This document shows positions 29,177 through 37,301 of a stretch of DNA of 64,000 bases, in pieces (positions within the stretch are counted from its first letter, which is position 1; the number at the start of each line of letters is the position of its first letter). A program made the position numbers and the translations under genes. The notes under the pieces were generated by a model, which was given only the letters and a program-made list of their open reading frames with translations, was not told the origin of the DNA and did not search any database. Origin of the DNA: Escherichia phage T5; sequence record NC_005859.1, one strand, 5' to 3'.

Positions 29177-29252
29177 TGGAGCGGCTAGAGGGAATCGAAC
29201 CCTACTCAGCGAGGCTTGGAAGGCCTGCGACACAACCCGTGTGCTTAACCGC
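29177..29252 (-). tRNA. tRNA-Gly (anticodon UCC)
   Basis: CCA encoded; anticodon loop CTTCCAA; acceptor stem 7 bp with one GU. Confidence 0.65.
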
Positions 29253-29259
29253 GATTATT

Positions 29260-29337
29260 TGGCAGGGGATATTGGATTTGAACCAATGATCTCGACTTCA
29301 AAGGCCGAAGCTTTAGGCCAAGCTAAGCTAATCCCCA
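29260..29337 (-). tRNA. tRNA-Gln (anticodon UUG)
   Basis: CCA encoded; anticodon loop CTTTGAA; perfect T-stem. Confidence 0.6.
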
Positions 29338-29343
29338 ATTGTT

Positions 29344-29419
29344 TGGCAGAAGGTAGTGGGTTCGAACCACGATCAGTGGTTTCAGAGATCCCAGCCTTAA
29401 CCGACTTGGCTAACCTTCT
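29344..29419 (-). tRNA. tRNA, anticodon arm atypical (possibly Gln-CUG)
   Basis: perfect acceptor stem AGAAGGT/ACCTTCT, D-stem AGCC/GGCT, T-loop TTCGAAC, CCA encoded; only 3/5 pairs in best anticodon stem. Confidence 0.4.
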
Positions 29420-29978
29420 TCTTAATACTTTTTGGATCTTTACCTGTTAAGGATTTATAACGTTTACGTAGTCCGTTATCAGATAATCCTAACTCTTTTG
29501 ATGCTTTAACCCATGAATAGTTTATTACCCAATATTCTATTTGCTCTGCTGTAATATCAGGGCTACTCTTAGGTTTACAATCAAAACAAGTTTTAGATGA
29601 AGAATTTATTTGTTTATTACAGTAAGGGCATTTATTACCACCTATTGTATGTCCTCTTTCAACTGTAGTTTTTATTCTATGATCTTGCTTGGTCATGACT
29701 ACTAGATTATCTAAGGAAAAATTCAATTTATTCCTATCTTTGTGATCCACTTCTAGCTCAGATTCTAGTGAAGGTAAATCTTTAAATACTCTAGCTAGTA
29801 ATCTATGTAATACGATAGAGACATTCTTGCCCTGTTCATAGAATGTTACAAACGGATATCCTGCACTACCTAAATGATGTGTGAGTAATTTATTACTCTT
29901 GGTAGAGTAAACTTCTCCATATGGAGAGATTAAGTATTCGGGATATTCCGGAATTACTTTGAAATTTTCTAATTTCAT
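29397..29978 (-). CDS. HNH homing endonuclease
   Basis: 193 aa; HNH core EVDHKDRNKLNFSLDNLVVMTKQDH plus C-terminal Zn-ribbon/HTH tail; 3' end overlaps adjacent tRNA. Confidence 0.8.
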   Translation of the reverse strand: MKLENFKVIPEYPEYLISPYGEVYSTKSNKLLTHHLGSAGYPFVTFYEQGKNVSIVLHRLLARVFKDLPSLESELEVDHKDRNKLNFSLDNLVVMTKQDHRIKTTVERGHTIGGNKCPYCNKQINSSSKTCFDCKPKSSPDITAEQIEYWVINYSWVKASKELGLSDNGLRKRYKSLTGKDPKSIKKKVSQVG

Positions 29979-29979
29979 C

Positions 29980-30180
29980 TTATTCTACAGGAACCGTGGC
30001 GATTGGCTCAGGTTCTTCAAGGCGCTTACCTTCATGATCTACTCGAATGACTCCGCATCCTTCGCAAACCACAACTGCACCATAACCTTCTTTGACTTCG
30101 GCTTCTGTAATCAGACCAGATAAGTCACCAGTATCTCTGCCCCACATATCAATGGAGCATTGTTTGCAGAAATCAGCCAT
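29980..30180 (-). CDS. zinc-ribbon small protein
   Basis: 66 aa; CxxC...CxxC. Confidence 0.45.
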   Translation of the reverse strand: MADFCKQCSIDMWGRDTGDLSGLITEAEVKEGYGAVVVCEGCGVIRVDHEGKRLEEPEPIATVPVE

Positions 30181-30205
30181 ATTTTATTTCCTATTTAAGT
30201 TAATT

Positions 30206-30282
30206 TGGGGTGGCTAGTGGAATTCGAATCCACATAGGCCTGATTCACAATCAGGATCATTAACCAATTATGATATAGCCAC
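30206..30282 (-). tRNA. tRNA-His (anticodon GUG)
   Basis: CCA encoded; discriminator C; anticodon loop TTGTGAA; perfect anticodon and T stems. Confidence 0.75.
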
Positions 30283-30511
30283 AATTGAAAACTCGCAGGG
30301 TTAGCGAAACCATCCTCAATTAGCATGTTCTAGAATACTAATCAAGTTATCTCCTATTGCACGCAGCTCAAGACGAGTACGAATTTTCAATTGTGGCGGC
30401 TCTCAGAAACTCTTCTATTCTAGCCCCAGAAGCTTACCCCCGAACGCATGTCGGGAAAGTCTTTCCAAGCGCATCAAATAGCACCGTTACACTTTGAGCC
30501 ATTGATATATC

Positions 30512-30596
30512 AAGGAACAGAAGGAGTTGAACCTTCACGAGATAGACCATTTATCTCAACCGCTTTTAAGGTATATTTCTAGGAGCGGATGTTCCT
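30512..30596 (-). ncRNA. tRNA-like structured RNA (non-canonical)
   Basis: perfect acceptor-like helix AGGAACA/TGTTCCT and T-arm GAAGG/TTCAACT/CCTTC, but internal region folds as two hairpins instead of D and anticodon arms; no CCA. Confidence 0.3.
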
Positions 30597-30844
30597 AGTA
30601 AACCTATTCGGCAGTCCCGTCTACCAATTCCGGCATATTCCAAGAATTTTTTATAAACCAGCAGAAGCCTCATTTAAAGCATCAACAATAGCTTCACGCT
30701 GGGTCATTCCATACCCAGTGGAGTCTAGGTGAGGCAAATAGGCTGCCCATCCATTATCTGTTTCATGAAGGCATGCTTTAAATTTTTTACCGTCCTTCAT
30801 TGTTACAGTAACTGTTTTGCTCATAAGGATTCCTTATAGTTAAT

Positions 30845-30934
30845 TGGAGGAAGGTAATGGAGTCGAACCATCACCGTATCACTACAGCGGGCTAGTTTTC
30901 AAGACTAGTTGCGTACCACTACGCCCTACCTTCC
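30845..30934 (-). tRNA. tRNA-Ser (anticodon UGA), class II
   Basis: 90 nt with long variable arm; anticodon stem-loop ACTAG/CTTGAAA/CTAGT; CCA encoded. Confidence 0.65.
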
Positions 30935-30941
30935 ATTTGTT

Positions 30942-31035
30942 TGGCGGAAAAGATGGGAGTTGAACCCATAAGGCAATATTGCTATTACTCAACCGATTTC
31001 CAATCGGGTTTAGTCGCCAGTCTATTTGCTTTTCC
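30942..31035 (-). tRNA. tRNA-Ser (anticodon GGA), class II
   Basis: ~94 nt; anticodon loop TTGGAAA; CCA encoded; 5' end overlaps stop of HNH gene 31022..31606. Confidence 0.55.
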
Positions 31036-31606
31036 GTTGTTCTGTTAATACTTTTGGGCTTAATCCAGTTAGTTTAGTATACCTCCTGCGCAAAGTGGAC
31101 TCTGATACTTCTAACTCTTTAGCTGCCTTAACCCACCCCATTAATAAAACCTTTTCAGTTATGTCGTCTAAAGACAATTCTGGTTTTATCAACCTTCCTG
31201 TAGGTTTTGGCTTACAATTTGTACATGTTACAGATCTCTGAAGCATTAGACTCCCACATAGGGGGCAAGGTACTCTACTGTCAGACCACCCATTATCTTT
31301 ATTAGTTTTCCTCTGATGTTCTATTTTTGATAGGACTTGAAGATTATCTTTAGATAGATTCAGTCTATCTCTATCCTTATGATCTACCTCTAATTCAGGG
31401 TCAAATAGATTATATAAGTCCCCAAATACATGAGAAATAATTCGGTGTATAAGTACAGAGGTTTGTTTACCATTTATCTGTAATTTTACAGCAGGGTATC
31501 CATCAACTATATATCTTGATAAAACTTTATTAGTAAATGTAGAGAACACATCCCCCGCCTCATTTACTAAATACCCTGGTGCATCTTTTATTGGTACAAA
31601 CTGCAT
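31022..31606 (-). CDS. HNH homing endonuclease
   Basis: 194 aa; paralog of 29397..29978 (same HNH core and C-terminal tail); 3' end overlaps tRNA-Ser. Confidence 0.8.
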   Translation of the reverse strand: MQFVPIKDAPGYLVNEAGDVFSTFTNKVLSRYIVDGYPAVKLQINGKQTSVLIHRIISHVFGDLYNLFDPELEVDHKDRDRLNLSKDNLQVLSKIEHQRKTNKDNGWSDSRVPCPLCGSLMLQRSVTCTNCKPKPTGRLIKPELSLDDITEKVLLMGWVKAAKELEVSESTLRRRYTKLTGLSPKVLTEQRKSK

Positions 31607-31623
31607 ACATAAATCCTATGAGT

Positions 31624-31708
31624 TGGTGGGGCTAGGGAGACTCGAACTCCCACGCATTTAAGCTACGGAATCTAAGGCCGTATTGTCTACCAGTTCCAGC
31701 ATAGCCCC
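31624..31708 (-). tRNA. tRNA-Leu (anticodon UAG), class II
   Basis: 85 nt; perfect T-stem; anticodon loop CTTAGAT; CCA encoded. Confidence 0.6.
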
Positions 31709-31713
31709 GAATT

Positions 31714-31789
31714 TGGTGGACAAAGAGGGACTCGAACCCTCCCTACCAGATTGCAAGTCTGGTGTGCTCCCGCTGACACTATTCGCCCA
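31714..31789 (-). tRNA. tRNA-Ala (anticodon UGC)
   Basis: anticodon loop CTTGCAA with perfect stem; acceptor stem carries the G3:U70 Ala identity pair; CCA encoded. Confidence 0.75.
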
Positions 31790-32026
31790 AATTATTTAGT
31801 TTACTAAGGCTATTAGCTCGGCGTAACTACAGCACCTTCGCTTCAAGCGGAAGGAACCGCGTCATCTCGCAAACCCAATACACTATTCAGTTGCCGCTGA
31901 ATCTAGTGGACTAATCTAGAACTTCTCCCAAATCGTAGGGATCGTGCTTTTTGGCAGCCAGTCCTAGGTCGAGCTAATACCTTAGTGAACTATGATGGGG
32001 ATTTCTCCTCATCAATTTATATAAAT

Positions 32027-32055
32027 ATTATAACAAGAAATTAAGCATTAAGCAA
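32027..32055 (-). promoter_or_regulatory. T5-type early promoter
   Basis: minus-strand TTGCTT-N17-TATAAT; no ORF for ~230 nt downstream (31800-32020). Confidence 0.65.
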
Positions 32056-32080
32056 CTGCGTTTTTGAAATTTCTTGGACT

Positions 32081-32154
32081 TGGTACTCGGTGATAGAATC
32101 GAACTATCACAACCGCCGTGTAAAGGCGGGGTTCTCCCATTATACTAACCGAGC
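32081..32154 (-). tRNA. tRNA-Val (anticodon UAC)
   Basis: anticodon stem-loop CCGCC/TTTACAC/GGCGG perfect; CCA encoded. Confidence 0.7.
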
Positions 32155-32161
32155 AAAAATT

Positions 32162-32239
32162 TGGTGGGTTGCACAGGACTCGAACCTGTAACCTATGGTT
32201 TAAAAGACCAGTGCTCTAAACCAGTTGAGCTAGCAACCC
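32162..32239 (-). tRNA. tRNA-Lys (anticodon UUU)
   Basis: anticodon loop CTTTTAA; perfect acceptor and T stems; CCA encoded. Confidence 0.65.
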
Positions 32240-32427
32240 TTAGTAACCATTATATACTTCTTTAATAGTATGGACTTTCAAATAAAGGTGATTAGTACTA
32301 AACTCCGCCATTACTTCTTTTTCATTTTTTCCATAATGTGCAAGTAAGGATTTTGATGTATTCTTACCTAAACGTTTGTCACTTACTACTAATCGAAATA
32401 CTTTCATTTCGAAATCCTCTATTAAAA

Positions 32428-32505
32428 TGGAAGCGGGTGCAGGAATCGAACCTACCTCTTTCTAGCTTATGAGACTAGCGATCTCTACCAGAGATCTAAC
32501 CCGCA
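32428..32505 (-). tRNA. tRNA-Met (anticodon CAU)
   Basis: anticodon loop CTCATAA; 1:72 position unpaired (U/U); CCA encoded. Confidence 0.6.
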
Positions 32506-32511
32506 ATTGTT

Positions 32512-32588
32512 TGGTCTCCAATGAAGGACTCGAACCTTCAACCCCACCGCCCCAAACGGTGTACTCTAGCCAATTGAGCTAATCGGAG
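32512..32588 (-). tRNA. tRNA-Pro (anticodon UGG)
   Basis: anticodon stem-loop CACCG/TTTGGGG/CGGTG perfect; G37; CCA encoded. Confidence 0.7.
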
Positions 32589-32783
32589 AAAATTATTTCT
32601 TCAGCCACAACATGCTTAATCCTAGCATTGTAAAGCCTGTACTTAATCCTATTACCTTTTCTATCATAGAAAAGTTATCTATGTTAAATCCTACTATTAC
32701 TATAGGGATAACCCAAGTACACATGAATACTGATGCAATTTTATACTTCACTTAGCTTTCCTTCTCTTCACTTTATAAGATAT

Positions 32784-32812
32784 ATTATACAGAGAATTAA
32801 GCATAATAGCAA
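32784..32812 (-). promoter_or_regulatory. T5-type early promoter
   Basis: minus-strand TTGCTA-N17-TATAAT. Confidence 0.65.
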
Positions 32813-33204
32813 CTACATTTTTCATAAATTTACTTATTGTGTAGGCCACCTGGAGGCTACCAACCCCACGGCTGACAAAGAAGTTTGCGAGACTTCTCTT
32901 AAAAGCCAGAATAGACCCGCCGATCTATCGGAACCTACATAATAAGTAAACTTTATAGTGTCATCCTAGACAGGATTCGAACCTGCTATCACTTGTGCGG
33001 ACTTACGAGAACCATTCTTTCACTCGAATCGAACGAGCTTCTGCCCTCGCCAAGTTGGTTTCCCCATCAACCACGCTAGAATGTTAGATTGTTTTCAGTG
33101 CAAGAGTCCGAGTCTTGGACACGACCGCTTCGCAAGTACATAGGCAGCTTATCATGAGTCAGCACTTCCGAATTGCTAGCTCCGTGTTCTGCACTGAAAT
33201 TTTA

Positions 33205-33552
33205 TTAGTTTAACCGTAAAGTATTATCTACTTCACCATTAATTGTTCGGCACTCCTCTGGGATTGCCGGAGTGGCCTTGTATTCCCACCACTCAGCACC
33301 ATCATATTCCCCACGTTCTAGCCAAGTTCCGTCGGCAAACCATACATTACCATAAAGTAATTGTCCACCGTATCCAGAATCATATTCAAAGTCTAGGTTA
33401 TCAAGAAAATCCTCAATATCTTCTTCTGTATAACCTAAAGGTAATACCCAAACTTTTTTATCCCCATAATACCCGAATTCTATTTTAATACACTTAACTT
33501 CAGAATTAGTATTTTTTAAGGCAAGTAACAGCTCTTCTTTGGCATTACGCAT
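33205..33552 (-). CDS. hypothetical acidic protein
   Basis: ORF-track start 33639 lies inside tRNA-Asp; internal ATG at 33552 (MRNAKE) used. Confidence 0.45.
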   Translation of the reverse strand: MRNAKEELLLALKNTNSEVKCIKIEFGYYGDKKVWVLPLGYTEEDIEDFLDNLDFEYDSGYGGQLLYGNVWFADGTWLERGEYDGAEWWEYKATPAIPEECRTINGEVDNTLRLN

Positions 33553-33577
33553 AGTATATTCCCATACTGAATTAATT

Positions 33578-33654
33578 TGGCGCGACCGATGGGATTTGAA
33601 CCCACATTCTCTCCCGTGACAGGGGAGTACCATTACCAAGCCAGCCCCGGTCGC
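33578..33654 (-). tRNA. tRNA-Asp (anticodon GUC)
   Basis: anticodon stem-loop CTCCC/CTGTCAC/GGGAG perfect; perfect acceptor stem; CCA encoded. Confidence 0.75.
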
Positions 33655-33663
33655 ATAATTTAT

Positions 33664-33849
33664 TTACTCAGCTTTGAGTTTTTCAATAGCTGCATTAAGT
33701 TCTTTAAGAAACTCTTTTCGTACATTAAGACGATTGAGACTTACTAGTATATCATGTTTAAGCTCTTCGATGTATTTCTTCTCAACTTCAATATTGTTGA
33801 TAGTGCTATCACGATGAACTTCTAGCTGCGCAATCACATTCTTGGACAT
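33664..33849 (-). CDS. small coiled-coil protein
   Basis: 61-aa ORF. Confidence 0.4.
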   Translation of the reverse strand: MSKNVIAQLEVHRDSTINNIEVEKKYIEELKHDILVSLNRLNVRKEFLKELNAAIEKLKAE

Positions 33850-33951
33850 GCTTGTTTCCTCAGTTATTAATGAAAATGGTATCTGTGGCTGAATTCGATG
33901 TCAGCAATGATAGCTGGTTGGCTACCGGTTTACTTAACTCTACACAGAATT

Positions 33952-34029
33952 TGGCGGTTCCTGCTGGATTCGAACCAGCAACCCTCAACTTAACAAGATG
34001 CCGCTCTAACCAATTAGAGCTAAGGAACC
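33952..34029 (-). tRNA. tRNA-Asn (anticodon GUU)
   Basis: canonical loop TTGTTAA but anticodon stem has two mismatches; perfect acceptor and T stems; CCA encoded. Confidence 0.5.
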
Positions 34030-34524
34030 ATATAAGTCAGAACTAGAGTTAATACGTTCTAGATATTTACTAAGATCTCTAGAATTTATACTAAACCACT
34101 CATGTTCTTTTAAATCTTTGAAATACTGGTGAATTAGTTTTTCACCTTTTCGTTTGTCAAACCAAAAAGACCAATGCTCTAACTTATAATCCCTATAAGG
34201 GGAATAAGTCTGATATTGAGCTAATCTCTCCTTTGGATTTTGACTCATACCTATTTTATACTGATTTTTCCATGCAGGATTACTAATACAGTATACAAAA
34301 CCTTCAGAAATAGGAAGTTTATTTTCCTGCTTAAACTTTATAAAGGAAAGTGCAGCAAGTTTTCTCGAATACATAGTATTTGTATTCTTTTTGGTATTAC
34401 CATTGGTTCCTGAAAGATTTATATATACTTCCATAAATCTTTGGATTAGTTCTGCGGTTATATAGAAGGGCTCATTAGTAACAACGCCTTTCTTTACCAA
34501 ACTATCAAAAACTTTTGTATGCAC
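34006..34524 (-). CDS. T5orf172-domain protein (GIY-YIG-related)
   Basis: 172 aa; YCISNPAW..YKIGMS..P..R pattern recognised from memory as the T5orf172 domain; 3' end overlaps tRNA-Asn. Confidence 0.7.
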   Translation of the reverse strand: MHTKVFDSLVKKGVVTNEPFYITAELIQRFMEVYINLSGTNGNTKKNTNTMYSRKLAALSFIKFKQENKLPISEGFVYCISNPAWKNQYKIGMSQNPKERLAQYQTYSPYRDYKLEHWSFWFDKRKGEKLIHQYFKDLKEHEWFSINSRDLSKYLERINSSSDLYGSLALIG

Positions 34525-34545
34525 TACTTCTTTCCTTTAGTAATT

Positions 34546-34621
34546 TGGACGACCGCATGAGATTTGAACTCACATAAAAAGGATTTGCAATCCTTCGCCT
34601 AAGCCATTCAGCCAACGGTCG
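34546..34621 (-). tRNA. tRNA-Cys (anticodon GCA)
   Basis: anticodon stem-loop AAGGA/TTGCAAA/TCCTT perfect; CCA encoded. Confidence 0.7.
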
Positions 34622-34784
34622 ATTTATTATCTTTCATAATATGTAGCTACATGGTCGGAACCACAATTACCACACACTTTCTTACCTGTTTTAGAGTAGT
34701 AATCTTGATCACCACATTCATAACAGATACATAATTCTTTTTCTTGTTCTGTCATATTGCTTCTCCAGTTCAATTTATGTAATT

Positions 34785-34813
34785 ATTATATAGAACTTTT
34801 GGAAACTAAGCAA
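34785..34813 (-). promoter_or_regulatory. T5-type early promoter
   Basis: minus-strand TTGCTT-N17-TATAAT. Confidence 0.65.
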
Positions 34814-35093
34814 CTACATTTTTTAAGAATTTGATGCCTTTCTTTTTCTTCTTATATTTCCACGTTAATGGATTCTGTCGATTATAAACGCTTGAGATCT
34901 TTGTCTCGTCAAAGTTCTTCAATATCATGTAATCACAGGATAATTGTTCTAGTGGAATGTGGTCACCGCCAAAAGCGTATATATAAGGCCGTTGACTAAC
35001 ACGATAATGATAGACTTTGTTAATTCTACGTTTCAGCGATTTATCCGCACAGTAAATAAAGAAGTTTTCAGGATGCATCAGCATCTCCTTCAA
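34806..35093 (-). CDS. hypothetical protein
   Basis: 95-aa ORF. Confidence 0.45.
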   Translation of the reverse strand: MKEMLMHPENFFIYCADKSLKRRINKVYHYRVSQRPYIYAFGGDHIPLEQLSCDYMILKNFDETKISSVYNRQNPLTWKYKKKKKGIKFLKNVVA

Positions 35094-35095
35094 TT

Positions 35096-35170
35096 TGGTG
35101 CACCCTGTTCGAATTGAACGAACCTCTCAAGCTCTTCAGGCAAGCGCTAATCCATCTCAGCTAAAGGTGC
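35096..35170 (-). tRNA. tRNA-Phe (anticodon GAA)
   Basis: perfect T-stem and D-stem; anticodon loop CTGAAGA; anticodon stem has two U:U mismatches; CCA encoded. Confidence 0.5.
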
Positions 35171-35256
35171 AAATTTTGGCAGAGGTAAAGGTATTCGAAA
35201 CCTTTTCATGGGTTTTGGAGGCCCATTTGCAACCTATGCGTACCCCAATTGTTAAT

Positions 35257-35333
35257 TGGCGTCCTGTGTGGGGATCGAACCCGCAAACCCTACCTTGAAA
35301 GGGTAGTGACTTTACCAGTTTGTCTAACAGGAC
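35257..35333 (-). tRNA. tRNA-Glu (anticodon UUC)
   Basis: anticodon stem-loop CTACC/CTTTCAA/GGTAG perfect; perfect acceptor stem; CCA encoded. Confidence 0.75.
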
Positions 35334-35339
35334 TTAAAT

Positions 35340-35427
35340 TGGTAGGGGAGGATGGAGTCGAACCACCCGAGTCGCAATGACAACTAATTTACAGTCAGCT
35401 CTGCTACCACTTACAGAATACTCCCCC
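35340..35427 (-). tRNA. tRNA-Tyr (anticodon GUA), class II
   Basis: 88 nt; anticodon arm GCTGA/CTGTAAA/TTAGT; long variable arm; CCA encoded. Confidence 0.55.
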
Positions 35428-35551
35428 ATATTTGAATGAAAAGTAAGTCGGTTAAACTCAAGGTGGAATATTTCAGGATTTCCTGACTTTACCCCTCAAA
35501 GTAACTCGCTTAGTTACTTCTCATTCAGATATGTTTCCAAATTAGATAACT

Positions 35552-35580
35552 ATTATACCAAGTTTTAAGGCACTGAGCAA
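35552..35580 (-). promoter_or_regulatory. sigma70 promoter
   Basis: minus-strand TTGCTC-N17-TATAAT upstream of tRNA-Tyr/Glu/Phe group. Confidence 0.55.
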
Positions 35581-35616
35581 GTCAAATTTTGAAGAACTTG
35601 CTCAGTGCTGTATTAG

Positions 35617-35892
35617 TTAGTCGAACTTAGGAGTGACAGATAAGGAGAACGGAAGTTCAAAAACTTCTTCACCCTCATTACTAACAGTAACTACACGACC
35701 TTTAAGTTCAGACATTGAAATATCAATATCAGCTTTTGCATCTGGAGCCATGCCAGCTTCAACACATTTAGCTTTAACTTCCGGCAAGAGTTCTACATCG
35801 TAGAAATAAAGCCATTCAATCTCACCTTCCCAGCCTTCCCAGGATTTACAGATTGCACTTTCAATACCAGTTGCTACAACACTATTTTGCAT
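35617..35892 (-). CDS. hypothetical protein
   Basis: 91-aa ORF downstream of canonical promoter. Confidence 0.45.
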   Translation of the reverse strand: MQNSVVATGIESAICKSWEGWEGEIEWLYFYDVELLPEVKAKCVEAGMAPDAKADIDISMSELKGRVVTVSNEGEEVFELPFSLSVTPKFD

Positions 35893-35982
35893 TCGTTAAC
35901 TCCTTCATCAATTTATACAACTATTATATCAGAAATTTAAAGCAAAAGGCAAGTACATTTTTAAAAATTCTATTCGGAGGAG

Positions 35983-36189
35983 CTAAACTCCAGATTCTTC
36001 TGCCAAGTCTAGGCTAATAAGAGTTATAGCCATAATTGCTGCACCGTGTTCTTTTTCTCCGGTGTTTTTAGCAGAGTCTATAATATCCTTAATCTGTTCG
36101 TAATAACTTTTTACTTCTTGTTCAATGCCTGCCTCGGCTATCATGCCTTTAGCCATGAATCGTTGCATGGTAATTTCAGGATTAGCCAT
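35983..36189 (-). CDS. hypothetical protein
   Basis: 68-aa ORF. Confidence 0.4.
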   Translation of the reverse strand: MANPEITMQRFMAKGMIAEAGIEQEVKSYYEQIKDIIDSAKNTGEKEHGAAIMAITLISLDLAEESGV

Positions 36190-36378
36190 GTTGTTTCTCC
36201 AGTTTCATTTTTAATAGTTTACAGATGAAATCAACGTCTTCATCCGTGCCTAAGTCTCTATCCTCAAGGGTCGCCTTGAAGTTTTTCGTCAATTCCATGA
36301 GGATGACTTCCCTAGAACGACGTGTTGGGGGCGGAGGAGGTCTATACATCTTAATTCCTTAATTTGGTAGGAACTATA

Positions 36379-37062
36379 TCATCTATTTTTCTTAATACTT
36401 TTAGGATCTTTCCCCGTCAGGGACTTATACCTTTTCCTTAATCCAGTATCAGACAATCCTAGTTCTTTAGAGGCACGAATCCAGGAATATTTAGATACCC
36501 AGTACTCTATTTGCTCCACAGTAATATCTGGATTTATAGTTATCCCTTTAGGAGTACATGATTTACAGTGTGTTGCTCTTGAGCTAATTTCGCAGTGACA
36601 AATAGCACACGTATTTACAGTCCTTTCTGTATACCTGCCAATATTTTTGCCTGCATGAGTAGGCGTTAGTGCATGGCAATTTGGACATAGGAGGGCTAAG
36701 TTATCCCATTCATTATTATAGTGGTTTCCATCCTTGTGTTCGAGTTCTAAAGGAATTGGTTTGTCTAACCAACTTTCTAAGCCGCAACTCTCACACTTAT
36801 GTGGTTTTAGCCCCTCGTTAAGAATTTTATTCTTTAGTTTATAGGAAGAAATAGGGCTGCCGTTATATAAATATTCTGTTGCAGACTTATATTTATTATC
36901 ATACTGCCTATTCGTAGGAATAACTACTATTCCTAGTTTTCCTAAATATGCTTCCAAAGTGTTCGAGGAGCAGGATAGCATTCTTGCTATCTCTGCCTTA
37001 GATTTTCCCTGAGCTATCCACTGAGCTATTTCTTCCTTTCTATCTAGTATATCAGTTCTCAT
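36379..37062 (-). CDS. HNH endonuclease with N-terminal HTH
   Basis: 227 aa; LELEHKDGNHYNNEWDNLALLCPNCH HNH core, extra Cys clusters, C-terminal tail shared with other HNH paralogs. Confidence 0.75.
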   Translation of the reverse strand: MRTDILDRKEEIAQWIAQGKSKAEIARMLSCSSNTLEAYLGKLGIVVIPTNRQYDNKYKSATEYLYNGSPISSYKLKNKILNEGLKPHKCESCGLESWLDKPIPLELEHKDGNHYNNEWDNLALLCPNCHALTPTHAGKNIGRYTERTVNTCAICHCEISSRATHCKSCTPKGITINPDITVEQIEYWVSKYSWIRASKELGLSDTGLRKRYKSLTGKDPKSIKKNR

Positions 37063-37085
37063 AATTTATGACTTTCTACTTAAGT

Positions 37086-37163
37086 TGGTGGCTCCCCGAG
37101 GATTCGAACCTACGTACCTTCCAGTTATGAGCTGGGTGCTCATACCATATGAGCTTGAGAACC
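37086..37163 (-). tRNA. tRNA-Met (anticodon CAU), second copy
   Basis: anticodon loop CTCATAA; D-stem GCTC/GAGC; acceptor stem with two GU pairs; weak T-stem; CCA encoded. Confidence 0.55.
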
Positions 37164-37169
37164 AGAATT

Positions 37170-37258
37170 TGGCGGAAGAAGTGGGAATCGAACCCACAAG
37201 GCTATATTTCAAACCGACAGATTAGCAATCTGCTGCAATACCGTTATGCTATTCTTCC
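37170..37258 (-). tRNA. tRNA-Ser (anticodon GCU), class II
   Basis: 89 nt; perfect acceptor and T stems; anticodon loop TTGCTAA; CCA encoded. Confidence 0.65.
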
Positions 37259-37272
37259 GAATTTATAAATAT

Positions 37273-37301
37273 ATTATATTAGAAATTTAGCTTCATAGCA
37301 A
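37273..37301 (-). promoter_or_regulatory. T5-type early promoter
   Basis: minus-strand TTGCTA-N17-TATAAT upstream of tRNA-Ser/Met pair. Confidence 0.65.

What the first reader, a model, noticed from the sequence alone, without database searches (positions are those of the whole stretch)
30290..30650. ORF-free stretch containing a non-canonical tRNA-like RNA
Within ~360 bp lacking ORFs, positions 30512-30596 form a perfect 7-bp acceptor-type helix and a perfect T-arm, but the interior folds as two hairpins (5-bp stem with 19-nt loop; 6-bp stem with 7-nt loop) instead of D and anticodon arms, and no CCA is encoded. Candidate structured ncRNA or tRNA-derived element.
Basis: seen in the sequence. 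Interest (0 to 1): 0.5.

Follow-up and report, generated by a model that had tools for sequence, protein, structure and literature searches.

The report
Phage T5 tRNA-like RNA1 cluster
The ORF-free gap holds three already-catalogued stable RNAs of phage T5 on the opposite strand, and the "odd tRNA" is part of RNA1, a leucine-tRNA-shaped RNA whose anticodon has been replaced by a long conserved hairpin and whose function is still unknown.

Summary
The window is phage T5. The gap 30290-30650 lies inside the minus-strand tRNA operon. GenBank records AY692264 (T5) and AJ604530 (BF23) already annotate it as RNA1 ("tRNA-like RNA with unknown functions"), RNAI and RNAIII ("stable RNA with unknown functions").

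Its "acceptor" and its 5-bp stem are not conserved; the latter depends on one strain-specific G.

An alignment of 21 distinct copies from three phage genera supports a ~131-nt fold (30512-30642, minus strand):
- an outer 7-bp acceptor;
- a Leu-type D-arm;
- a 5-bp anticodon-type stem;
- a 47-nt extension of two further helices capped by an invariant 8-nt loop;
- a near-invariant long variable arm;
- a canonical T-arm.

No CCA is encoded, whereas 23 of 24 T5 tRNA genes encode one. No anticodon loop is conserved, so RNA1 cannot decode. It is present in 485 phage genomes, almost never annotated, and absent from Rfam. A viable T5 deletion mutant removes the whole region.

Verdict: real, conserved and structured, but already known. 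Function is open; a trans-acting tRNA mimic is my preferred guess.

The parts
30501..30644 (-). RNA1 as annotated in GenBank (144 nt), 'tRNA-like RNA with unknown functions'. The tRNA-like core is 30512-30642.
   Evidence: AY692264 rna1 30504-30647 (window = record - 3) and BF23 AJ604530 rna1. Rfam tRNA hit at 30512-30642 (-), 24.0 bits against a gathering score of 29. Own model R1 scores 165 bits.
30636..30642 (-). Acceptor stem, 5' strand (UGGAAUA). It pairs with 30513-30519 and has a U1.U72 mismatch.
   Evidence: Four of 7 pairs show changes on both sides across genera. RNAalifold predicts it independently.
30513..30519 (-). Acceptor stem, 3' strand (UGUUCCU). The discriminator U is at 30512. 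No CCA follows (UGA...).
30617..30633 (-). D-arm of tRNA-Leu type (CCGGAAUUGGUAGACGG, with G18G19 and a 3-bp stem).
   Evidence: cmscan alignment. 17 of 19 bases identical to T5 tRNA-Leu(UAG). Nearly invariant, so covariation cannot confirm it; RNAalifold prefers an alternative local hairpin.
30611..30615 (-). Anticodon-type stem, 5' strand (ACUGC). It pairs with 30559-30563 (GCGGU).
   Evidence: 100% paired. Two pairs change on both sides: A-U to G-C, and G-C to U-A.
30564..30610 (-). 47-nt extension that replaces the anticodon loop. It contains a mid stem (30602-30605 with 30569-30572) and an apical hairpin (30593-30598 with 30579-30584).
   Evidence: Mid stem: one pair with changes on both sides. 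Apical stem: three such pairs. T5 tRNA-Leu aligns to the RNA1 model with a single 41-nt gap here. The sequence next to the 3' stem strand (CUUAAAA in T5) is not conserved as an anticodon loop.
30585..30592 (-). Apical 8-nt loop ACAUCCGC. It reads ACAUCCAC in every other genome, and G30586 is specific to this T5 sequence version.
   Evidence: Invariant columns 58-63 and 65 over three genera, while the stem below co-varies.
30539..30557 (-). Class II long variable arm (GAGAUA-AAUGGUC-UAUCUC).
   Evidence: Almost invariant and 100% paired.
30520..30536 (-). T-arm (GAAGG-UUCAACU-CCUUC).
30501..30511 (-). Spacer between RNA1 and RNAI. Together with U30512 it forms a small palindromic hairpin (UUGAUAUAUCAA).
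   Evidence: The palindrome is kept despite indels in its centre in other phages. Not tested further.
30394..30500 (-). RNAI (107 nt), a stable RNA. It has a 5-bp terminal stem GGCUC/GAGCC followed by G and an encoded CCA.
   Evidence: Annotated in AY692264 and AJ604530. The termini are conserved while the interior exists in two unrelated versions of 100 and 107 nt.
30284..30389 (-). RNAIII (106 nt), a stable RNA. It is a variable cassette closed by a long terminal stem.
   Evidence: Annotated. At least four interior variants (68, 111, 126 and 138 nt) lie between the conserved CCACAAUUGA...UCAAUUGUGG inverted repeat.
30206..30283 (-). tRNA-His(GUG), the downstream neighbour in the same transcript (context).
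30651..30824 (-). ORF T5p061 (57 aa, hypothetical), the upstream neighbour. Its stop codon lies 6 nt before the annotated start of RNA1 (context).
   Evidence: No Pfam family.

Best explanation
The gap encodes, on the minus strand, the known phage T5 stable RNAs RNA1, RNAI and RNAIII. They lie between ORF T5p061 and tRNA-His in the long early tRNA operon.

RNA1 is a class II tRNA body of leucine type. It keeps a 7-bp acceptor, a Leu-like D-arm with G18G19, a 5-bp anticodon-type stem, a long variable arm and a canonical T-arm. Its anticodon loop has been replaced by a 47-nt extension: two more helices ending in an invariant 8-nt loop (ACAUCCAC). It has no conserved anticodon and no encoded CCA, so it cannot decode.

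How it most likely works:
- Shown: there is no local promoter or terminator, so RNA1 is made as part of a polycistronic transcript.
- Inferred: the tRNA-like top half lets the host tRNA-processing machinery excise it. RNase P would cut at the 5' side of RNA1 and of the following RNAI, and a 3' endonuclease or exonucleases would trim the rest. The same fold would make it metabolically stable.
- Inferred, about 35% likely: the long arm presents the invariant loop as a binding site, so RNA1 acts in trans as a non-decoding tRNA mimic, that is, a ligand or decoy for some tRNA-recognising factor. It would be an accessory function that matters only in some hosts.
For: Identity:
- 99.9% identity to T5. 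AY692264 and AJ604530 annotate rna1, rnaI and rnaIII at exactly these positions on this strand, with the notes quoted above.

Architecture:
- Rfam tRNA alignment over 30512-30642 (-).
- 21 distinct homologs: 94.8% of cells paired, 10 pairs with changes on both sides, covariation 0.285 against 0.09 or less for slid controls and 0 of 500 shuffles.
- RNAalifold recovers the same helices except the D-stem.

Leu-type ancestry:
- D-arm 17 of 19 bases identical to T5 tRNA-Leu.
- The RNA1 model's best non-self hits are T5 tRNA-Leu (40.3 bits, one 41-nt gap at the anticodon) and T4 tRNA-Leu (35.8 bits).

Non-decoding:
- The sequence flanking the 3' stem strand varies (CUUAAAA, CAUAAAG, CGAAAAC) and lacks U33.
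- No CCA in any genus, whereas 23 of 24 T5 tRNA genes and RNAI encode one.
- ARAGORN does not call it.

Selection:
- Full-length copies in 485 phage records of Tequintavirus, Epseptimavirus, Sugarlandvirus and others, down to 74% identity.
- Invariant apical loop over a co-varying stem.
- A 1-nt indel and compensatory substitutions argue against a coding role.

Context:
- No credible promoter or terminator in the gap.
- A second T5 RNA (RNA2) has the same design.
- The region is accessory: the viable T5-123 deletion 29191-32442 removes it (PMC11464382), and the del-1 region tolerates deletions of 200-15,000 bp (PMC12483538).
- T5 tRNAs have proven counter-defence roles (PMC11464382; PMC10644984).
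Against: - No expression, end-mapping or binding data were accessible. The primary papers from the 1980s are not in the searchable library, so 'stable RNA' rests on the GenBank notes.
- The terminal helix appears to continue beyond the tRNA-type acceptor. Pairs at columns 5-141 and 6-140 are kept with a compensatory change in Sugarlandvirus. That is unusual for an RNase P substrate and leaves the mature ends uncertain.
- Nothing identifies a partner for the loop. Complementary sites are not enriched in the window (17 against 12.7 expected), and E. coli genomes hold no related sequence.
- The cloned fragments of the T5-123 deletion other than the tRNA Pro/fMet/Lys/Val fragment did not relieve PARIS, so RNA1 is not the PARIS suppressor.
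- Anticodon nucleases read anticodon loops, which RNA1 lacks, so a simple decoy for that class is unlikely.
Confidence: 0.8

Rival explanations
1. RNA1 acts only in cis as a processing or 'punctuation' element. It is a tRNA-shaped handle that recruits RNase P and 3' tRNases to cut the polycistronic transcript between the T5p061 mRNA and the downstream stable RNAs and tRNA-His. It has no function as a free RNA.
For: It sits 6 nt after the T5p061 stop codon inside an operon of interleaved ORFs and tRNAs, with no local promoter or terminator. It keeps exactly the parts that RNase P recognises, the acceptor/T-arm stack and the elbow. It lacks CCA and an anticodon. It is dispensable. Comparable tRNA-like processing signals are known elsewhere, for example plant mitochondrial t-elements (PMC1920247, listed) and mascRNA (background knowledge).
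Against: A mere cleavage handle does not need a 47-nt extension with two co-varying helices, an invariant 8-nt apical loop, or a near-invariant variable arm kept over three genera. Genuine tRNAs flank the site on both sides and could serve the same purpose.
Confidence: 0.25
2. RNA1 is a decaying tRNA-Leu pseudogene. A tRNA gene was broken by an insertion into its anticodon, perhaps linked to the homing-endonuclease traffic in this region, and is carried along without function.
For: It has a Leu-type body with a 41-nt insertion exactly at the anticodon. HNH endonuclease genes sit beside and overlap tRNA genes here. The region is dispensable. It scores below Rfam's threshold and has lost CCA.
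Against: Ten base pairs are maintained by double substitutions, including pairs inside the 'insertion'. 94.8% pairing is kept at down to 74% sequence identity. The loop is invariant. It is retained in 485 genomes across at least three genera. A neutral pseudogene would not behave this way.
Confidence: 0.07
3. RNA1 is a functional intron-containing tRNA-Leu(UAA). The ~40-nt insert is spliced out to restore the CUUAAAA anticodon loop seen in T5.
For: In T5 the 7 nt before the 3' strand of the anticodon stem read CUUAAAA, a perfect Leu(UAA) loop. tRNA-Leu(UAA) is the classic host of bacterial group I introns (background knowledge). The D-arm and variable arm are of Leu type.
Against: The CUUAAAA motif is specific to the T5 clade. 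Other genera have CAUAAAG or CGAAAAC without U33. The insert is far too small for a group I intron and no intron family matched. No bulge-helix-bulge motif is present. The insertion would lie at position 31/32 or 32/33, not at a known intron site. The discriminator is U, not the A73 needed for Leu identity (background knowledge), and no CCA is encoded.
Confidence: 0.03
4. One reading: an 85-nt RNA at 30512-30596 with a 7-bp acceptor, a T-arm and two interior hairpins in place of the D and anticodon arms.
For: All four helices are perfect in this strain, and the isolated piece folds this way with z of -3.5 to -4.9.
Against: The inner acceptor and the 5-bp stem are not conserved, and one depends on a strain-specific base. 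In the full context the minimum-energy fold uses the outer acceptor. The plus strand scores 7 bits against the comparative model, against 165 bits for the minus strand.
Confidence: 0.02

Closest known systems
Phage T5 / BF23 RNA1 (GenBank AY692264 gene rna1; AJ604530 gene rna1, 'tRNA-like RNA with unknown functions')
   Same: It is this very locus: same position, strand and sequence (99.3-100% identity).
   Different: Nothing, except a single A-to-G difference in the apical loop of the window's T5 version (window 30586).
Class II tRNA-Leu (T5 tRNA-Leu(UAG), window 31624-31708; Rfam RF00005)
   Same: 7-bp acceptor, U8, A14, G18G19, 3-bp D-stem, 5-bp anticodon stem, long variable arm, GGUUCRANUCC T-loop. 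The D-arm is 17 of 19 bases identical.
   Different: A 47-nt two-helix extension instead of a 7-nt anticodon loop. No anticodon. No encoded CCA. U73 and a U1.U72 mismatch. Below Rfam's gathering score and not called by ARAGORN.
T5 RNA2 (window 32959-33083, minus strand; 'tRNA-like RNA with unknown functions')
   Same: Same design: acceptor stem, D-arm, canonical T-arm, a long irregular arm in place of the anticodon arm, no CCA. It is in the same operon family and is conserved in 434 phage records.
   Different: Not a sequence paralog; only the T-arm matches the RNA1 model (5.6 bits). It has no long variable arm, an 8-bp acceptor, and a different extended arm.
Phage T4 species 1 and 2 RNAs (rnaC, rnaD)
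   Same: Small stable RNAs of about 120-140 nt encoded at the end of a phage tRNA cluster and co-transcribed with tRNAs. rnaC has a tRNA-type T-arm and acceptor. Their roles are still unknown (PMC3014915).
   Different: No detectable homology: the RNA1 model scores 11 bits on rnaC. The phage family and the internal structure are different.
tRNA-like domains of tmRNA and bacterial Y RNA (YrlA)
   Same: Non-decoding RNAs that keep an acceptor/T-arm/D-loop 'elbow' and replace the anticodon region with something else.
   Different: ARAGORN finds no tmRNA and there is no tag reading frame. YrlA has its ends in the long stem and a closed acceptor, the opposite topology. No Rfam hit to either family.

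Membership tests
T5/BF23 RNA1 locus (GenBank misc_RNA rna1) | Same sequence, position and strand as the annotated rna1 between ORF T5p061 (trn 2.14) and rnaI | tested here: met
   99.9% over 751 nt. rna1 at record 30504-30647 equals window 30501-30644, minus strand.
Canonical tRNA (Rfam RF00005) | Score at or above the curated gathering threshold, or a call by a tRNA finder | tested here: not met
   24.0 bits against 29. Not called by ARAGORN.
Canonical tRNA (Rfam RF00005) | Acceptor stem, D-arm with G18G19, and T-arm with a GUUCRANYC loop | tested here: met
   cmscan alignment. Acceptor co-varies and the T-arm is invariant.
Canonical tRNA (Rfam RF00005) | 7-nt anticodon loop with U33 and a conserved anticodon | tested here: not met
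   The loop is 47-48 nt and forms two helices. The anticodon-loop-like CUUAAAA of T5 is not conserved.
Canonical tRNA (Rfam RF00005) | 3' CCA (encoded in T5 tRNA genes) and aminoacylation | tested here: not met
   23 of 24 T5 tRNA genes encode CCA; RNA1 does not in any genus. Post-transcriptional CCA addition and charging are not testable here.
Intron-containing tRNA (group I intron in tRNA-Leu(UAA); archaeal or eukaryal BHB intron) | Intron with a recognisable catalytic core or BHB motif, whose excision restores a conserved 7-nt anticodon loop | tested here: not met
   The insert is 41-47 nt. No intron family at E of 10 or less. No conserved anticodon loop can be restored in the other genera.
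tmRNA | tRNA-Ala-like ends plus an internal tag-peptide reading frame | tested here: not met
   ARAGORN (tRNA and tmRNA finder) finds nothing here. No Rfam tmRNA hit.
T4 rnaC/rnaD (species 1/2 RNA) | Sequence and structure homology to T4 rnaC | tested here: not met
   Model R1 scores 11.3 bits on T4 rnaC, against 134-165 bits on true RNA1 copies.
Bacterial Y RNA / YrlA | Ro-binding stem formed by the 5' and 3' ends, with a tRNA-like module closed at the acceptor | tested here: not met
   No Rfam hit. In RNA1 the ends lie in the acceptor and the long arm is closed.

The most novel reading that the evidence does not exclude
RNA1 and the similarly built RNA2 are founding members of an uncharacterised class of phage 'long-armed' tRNA mimics that is absent from Rfam. 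They keep the tRNA elbow, acceptor and variable arm so that host tRNA enzymes process and tolerate them, and they use an invariant loop at the tip of a ~15-bp arm to bind and neutralise a host tRNA-recognising factor in trans. That factor could be a defence nuclease or toxin, LeuRS, or a tRNA-processing enzyme. This would extend the recently discovered counter-defence role of T5 tRNAs to non-decoding RNAs.
Probability: 0.3. Interest if true: 0.6.

Novelty: already known. Interest (0 to 1): 0.3.

Why it matters
The element itself is not a discovery. It has been in GenBank since about 2004 as a tRNA-like RNA of unknown function.

What remains worthwhile:
- **An open question of roughly 40 years.** What do the non-tRNA stable RNAs of phage tRNA clusters do (T5 RNA1/2/3 and I/III/IV; T4 rnaC/rnaD)? 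T5 tRNAs have now been shown to defeat PARIS and retron Eco7, which makes the question timely.
- **A testable model.** RNA1 is strongly conserved and structurally constrained in 485 or more Demerecviridae genomes. Yet modern annotations leave it blank or cover it with spurious 'hypothetical proteins', and Rfam has no family for it. The covariation-supported fold and the invariant loop found here give a concrete target for mutagenesis and a seed alignment for an RNA family.

Tried and rejected
- **Plus-strand reading of the element.** Rejected: 7 bits against 165 bits on the comparative model, and the T-loop motif exists only on the minus strand.
Not conserved.
- **Intron-containing tRNA-Leu(UAA).** The T5 CUUAAAA motif looked promising but is clade-specific.
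- **Host origin.** No match to RNA1 in 5,426 complete E. coli genomes.
- **Known RNA family.** Nothing in Rfam 15 other than a sub-threshold tRNA hit.
- **Homology to T4 rnaC.** Not supported.
- **Base-pairing target for the apical loop within the window.** No enrichment.
- **Distant relatives, by a relaxed pattern scan of viral contigs screened with the covariance model.** Only Demerecviridae copies were found. One unrelated class II tRNA-like gene (L080) was picked up because of how the pattern was chosen.
- **Neighbouring small ORFs as a clue.** T5p061 and T5p060 have no Pfam family.
- **Literature.** Four full-text searches found no open-access paper describing T5 RNA1, RNAI or RNAIII. The supplement of PMC12483538 held no deletion table as text.
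- **D-stem register.** It cannot be settled by covariation because it never varies. I follow the tRNA homology, while RNAalifold prefers a local 5-bp hairpin.

Full report
**Where we are.** The window is bacteriophage T5. A 751-nt query around the finding matches T5 records at 99.9% and about 440 T5-like phages at 80-99%. The finding lies in the middle of a minus-strand array of 23 or more tRNA genes, between tRNA-His (30206-30282) and a 57-aa ORF (30651-30824) that follows two tRNA-Ser genes.

Two curated GenBank records from the laboratory that sequenced this region fill the gap with three minus-strand misc_RNA features. They are T5 strain st0 (AY692264) and the BF23 tRNA gene region (AJ604530). 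In window coordinates (record minus 3):

| Feature | Window coordinates | Length | GenBank note |
|---|---|---|---|
| RNA1 | 30501-30644 | 144 nt | "tRNA-like RNA with unknown functions" |
| RNAI | 30394-30500 | 107 nt | "stable RNA with unknown functions" |
| RNAIII | 30284-30389 | 106 nt | "stable RNA with unknown functions" |

. The same records list RNA2 and RNA3 as tRNA-like, and RNAIV, RNA2H and RNAX as stable RNAs. The third T5 record (AY587007) and nearly all modern T5-like genome records leave the gap empty, or place short 'hypothetical proteins' over it.

**Checking the observation.** The isolated 86-nt piece folds that way better than shuffled controls on either strand. No CCA is encoded, and no ORF of 60 aa or more is present.

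Three things are wrong:
1. **Strand.** The 'T-arm' has the tRNA T-loop sequence (GGUUCAACUCC) only on the minus strand. On the plus strand it would sit at the 5' side, where a D-arm belongs.
2. **Boundaries.** Rfam's tRNA model finds a sub-threshold match (24.0 bits against a gathering score of 29) over 30512-30642 on the minus strand. This match adds an upstream acceptor strand, a Leu-type D-arm (CCGGAAUUGGUAGACGG) and a 5-bp anticodon-type stem.

**Comparative test.** RNA1 is found at full length in 485 phage records at 74-99% identity, with the insertion always present. These include Tequintavirus, Epseptimavirus, Sugarlandvirus, and phages of Yersinia and Pectobacterium. I fetched 12 diverse annotated loci and 23 viral contigs and aligned 21 distinct copies (A1).

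For the full tRNA-like fold with an extended anticodon arm (7 helices, 36 pairs):
- 94.8% of cells are standard pairs.
- 10 pairs change on both sides.
- The covariation score is 0.285, against 0.04-0.09 when partners are slid by 1-3 columns and 0 of 500 column shuffles.

Compensatory changes fall in four helices:
- the outer acceptor (UGGAAUA/UGUUCCU to UGAAGUA/UGCUUCU to GAUGCCG/CGGGGUU);
- the anticodon-type stem (ACUGC/GCGGU to GCUGC/GCGGC to GCUUC/GAGGC);
- the mid stem;
- the apical hairpin (CUAGGA/UCCUAG to GGGGA/UCCUC to GCAGA/UCUGC).

RNAalifold, run without my structure, recovers the same helices except the D-stem. It adds two pairs beyond the acceptor that also co-vary.

The inner acceptor is paired in 76% of cells, with pair 58-134 unpaired in 17 of 21. 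The middle pair of the 5-bp stem forms in only 1 of 21 sequences. That one sequence is the window's own T5 version. It carries a G at 30586 where AY692264, AY587007 and every other phage have A.

**What RNA1 is.** It is a class II tRNA body of leucine type.
- Its D-arm is 17 of 19 bases identical to T5 tRNA-Leu(UAG).
- A covariance model built from A1 (R1) scores true RNA1 copies at 134-165 bits. Its next best hits are T5 tRNA-Leu (40.3 bits), T4 tRNA-Leu (35.8 bits) and T4 tRNA-Ser (33.6 bits).
- T5 tRNA-Leu aligns to the model with a single 41-nt gap exactly at the anticodon.
- The extension is not an intron. T5's CUUAAAA next to the 3' stem strand looks like a Leu(UAA) loop, but the other clades have CAUAAAG or CGAAAAC. 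No intron family matches.
- The 8-nt apical loop (ACAUCCAC) and the 19-nt variable arm are essentially invariant over three genera, while adjacent stems co-vary.
- RNA1 lacks an encoded CCA in every genus, whereas 23 of 24 T5 tRNA genes, and RNAI, encode CCA.
- It carries a U1.U72 mismatch and U73, as does T5's own tRNA-fMet.

It therefore cannot decode and probably is not charged. It is nevertheless under clear purifying selection at the RNA level. A 1-nt indel in the alignment and the substitution pattern exclude a conserved reading frame.

**The rest of the gap.**
- **RNAI.** It keeps its two ends (GGCUCAAAGWGUAACGGUGC ... GAGUUUCKGAGAGCC-G-CCA), which form a 5-bp terminal stem followed by an encoded CCA. 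Its interior exists in two unrelated versions of 100 and 107 nt.
- **RNAIII.** It is a variable cassette, with interiors giving 68, 111, 126 or 138 nt. It is closed by a conserved inverted repeat that links RNAI's CCA to the first bases of tRNA-His (CCACAAUUGA...UCAAUUGUGG).
- **Transcription signals.** No credible promoter or terminator lies in the gap. The two 'terminators' reported are the RNA1 T-arm and an RNAIII hairpin. The annotated promoter P13b lies about 1.4 kb upstream. All three RNAs must therefore be cut out of a long operon transcript.

**How it probably works.**
- **Shown:** minus-strand position in a polycistronic tRNA operon, a conserved tRNA top half, a conserved extended arm with an invariant loop, no anticodon and no CCA.
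- **Inferred from established tRNA biology:** the acceptor/T-arm stack and elbow make RNA1 a substrate for RNase P and 3' tRNases and give it tRNA-like stability. The annotated 3' end coincides with the 5' end of RNAI, which looks like an RNase P site.
- **My preferred functional reading (about 35%):** RNA1 is a trans-acting, non-decoding tRNA mimic whose invariant loop is the binding surface for an unknown partner.

The setting fits an accessory, host-dependent role:
- The del-1 tRNA region tolerates deletions (PMC12483538).
- The viable mutant T5-123 (deletion 29191-32442) removes the whole finding (PMC11464382). That paper's coordinates agree with the window, because its fragment 31885-32870 holds the tRNAs Pro, fMet, Lys and Val that the window has at 32081-32588.
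- T5 tRNAs are proven counter-defence factors against PARIS and retron Eco7.
- RNA1 is not the PARIS suppressor, since the other fragments of that deletion had no effect.

The main rival (about 25%) is a purely cis-acting processing handle, but this does not explain the invariant loop or the co-varying extension.

**Comparison with known systems.**
- The element is T5 RNA1 itself, so membership is met.
- It is not a canonical tRNA: three defining features were tested and not met.
- It is not a tmRNA, a Y RNA, or a homolog of T4 rnaC (11 bits). T4 rnaC/rnaD are its closest functional analogues, and their role is equally unknown (PMC3014915).
- T5 RNA2 (32959-33083, minus strand) shares the design: acceptor, D-arm, canonical T-arm, a ~55-nt arm in place of the anticodon arm, and no CCA. 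It shares no sequence with RNA1. It is conserved in 434 records, with a few compensatory changes. T5-like phages thus carry a small class of 'long-armed' tRNA-like RNAs.

**Limits.**
- I could not access the original papers from the 1980s or any T5 small-RNA data. Expression, mature ends, CCA addition and charging are therefore unverified here.
- The covariation statistics come from 21 related sequences, so the shuffle counts are not probabilities. The slid-partner control and the independent RNAalifold result are the stronger evidence.
- The D-stem register rests on homology only.

**Verdict.** This is a real, conserved, structured tRNA-derived RNA. It is of modest interest as an unsolved, now tractable, piece of phage tRNA-cluster biology.

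Noticed in passing
window 30394-30500 (-), RNAI; loci L007, L010, L012, L038, L042: RNAI keeps about 20 nt at each end (a 5-bp terminal stem followed by an encoded G-CCA), but its interior comes in two unrelated versions of 100 nt and 107 nt in different T5-like phages. It behaves like a modular RNA with a swappable core.
   Followed up: partly
window 30284-30393 (-), RNAIII and flanks: RNAIII is a variable cassette, with at least four interiors giving 68, 111, 126 or 138 nt. It sits between a conserved inverted repeat, CCACAAUUGA...UCAAUUGUGG, which pairs RNAI's 3' CCA with the 5' leader and first bases of tRNA-His.
   Followed up: partly
window 32959-33083 (-), RNA2: This is a second tRNA-like RNA with the same design as RNA1: an 8-bp acceptor, a D-arm, the T-arm CAGGUUCGAAUCCUG, a ~55-nt arm in place of the anticodon arm, and no CCA. 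It is conserved in 434 phage records, shows compensatory changes in the D- and T-stems, and is not a sequence paralog of RNA1.
   Followed up: partly
window 41431-41504 (-): ARAGORN calls a 'tRNA-Ser(ACU)' here. It is the only one of 24 tRNA calls without an encoded CCA, and it lies inside what the BF23 record annotates as the 784-nt 'RNAX, stable RNA with unknown functions'. It is probably another tRNA-like module rather than a decoding tRNA.
   Followed up: no
window 29177-29252 (-) and 37089-37163 (-): tRNA-Gly (annotated in AY692264 and BF23, with an encoded CCA) is missed by both ARAGORN and Rfam at gathering threshold. Conversely, Rfam finds a tRNA at 37089-37163 that ARAGORN misses; BF23 annotates it as tRNA-Ile2 with a CAU anticodon.
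   Followed up: no
window 30586: There is a single-base difference between T5 sequence versions in the otherwise invariant apical loop of RNA1. It is G here and in the 121,750-bp T5 contig L030, and A in AY692264, AY587007 and all other phages.
   Followed up: yes
window 32428-32505 (-), tRNA-fMet; RNA1 ends 30642/30513 and 30512: T5's initiator tRNA has a U1.U72 mismatch and U73, the same acceptor-end features as RNA1. In Sugarlandvirus copies of RNA1 the terminal helix instead continues for about 13 bp into the leader and trailer.
   Followed up: no
window 29397-29978 (-) and 31022-31606 (-): Two paralogous HNH homing-endonuclease ORFs (193 and 194 aa) overlap the ends of tRNA genes: tRNA-Gln at 29344-29419 and tRNA-Ser at 30942-31035. 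This is typical of the mosaic T5 tRNA region. The published T5Mos deletion (30661-38625) starts just upstream of RNA1.
   Followed up: no
L080 1307-1423 (-), IMG/VR contig 3300049491_000529 (28 kb): An unrelated viral contig carries a class II, Leu-type tRNA-like gene with a 6-bp anticodon stem, an 11-nt loop (CCUUUGAACAU) and a 10-bp variable arm with an 18-nt loop. Rfam's tRNA model scores it at 41 bits, and ARAGORN calls nothing.
   Followed up: partly
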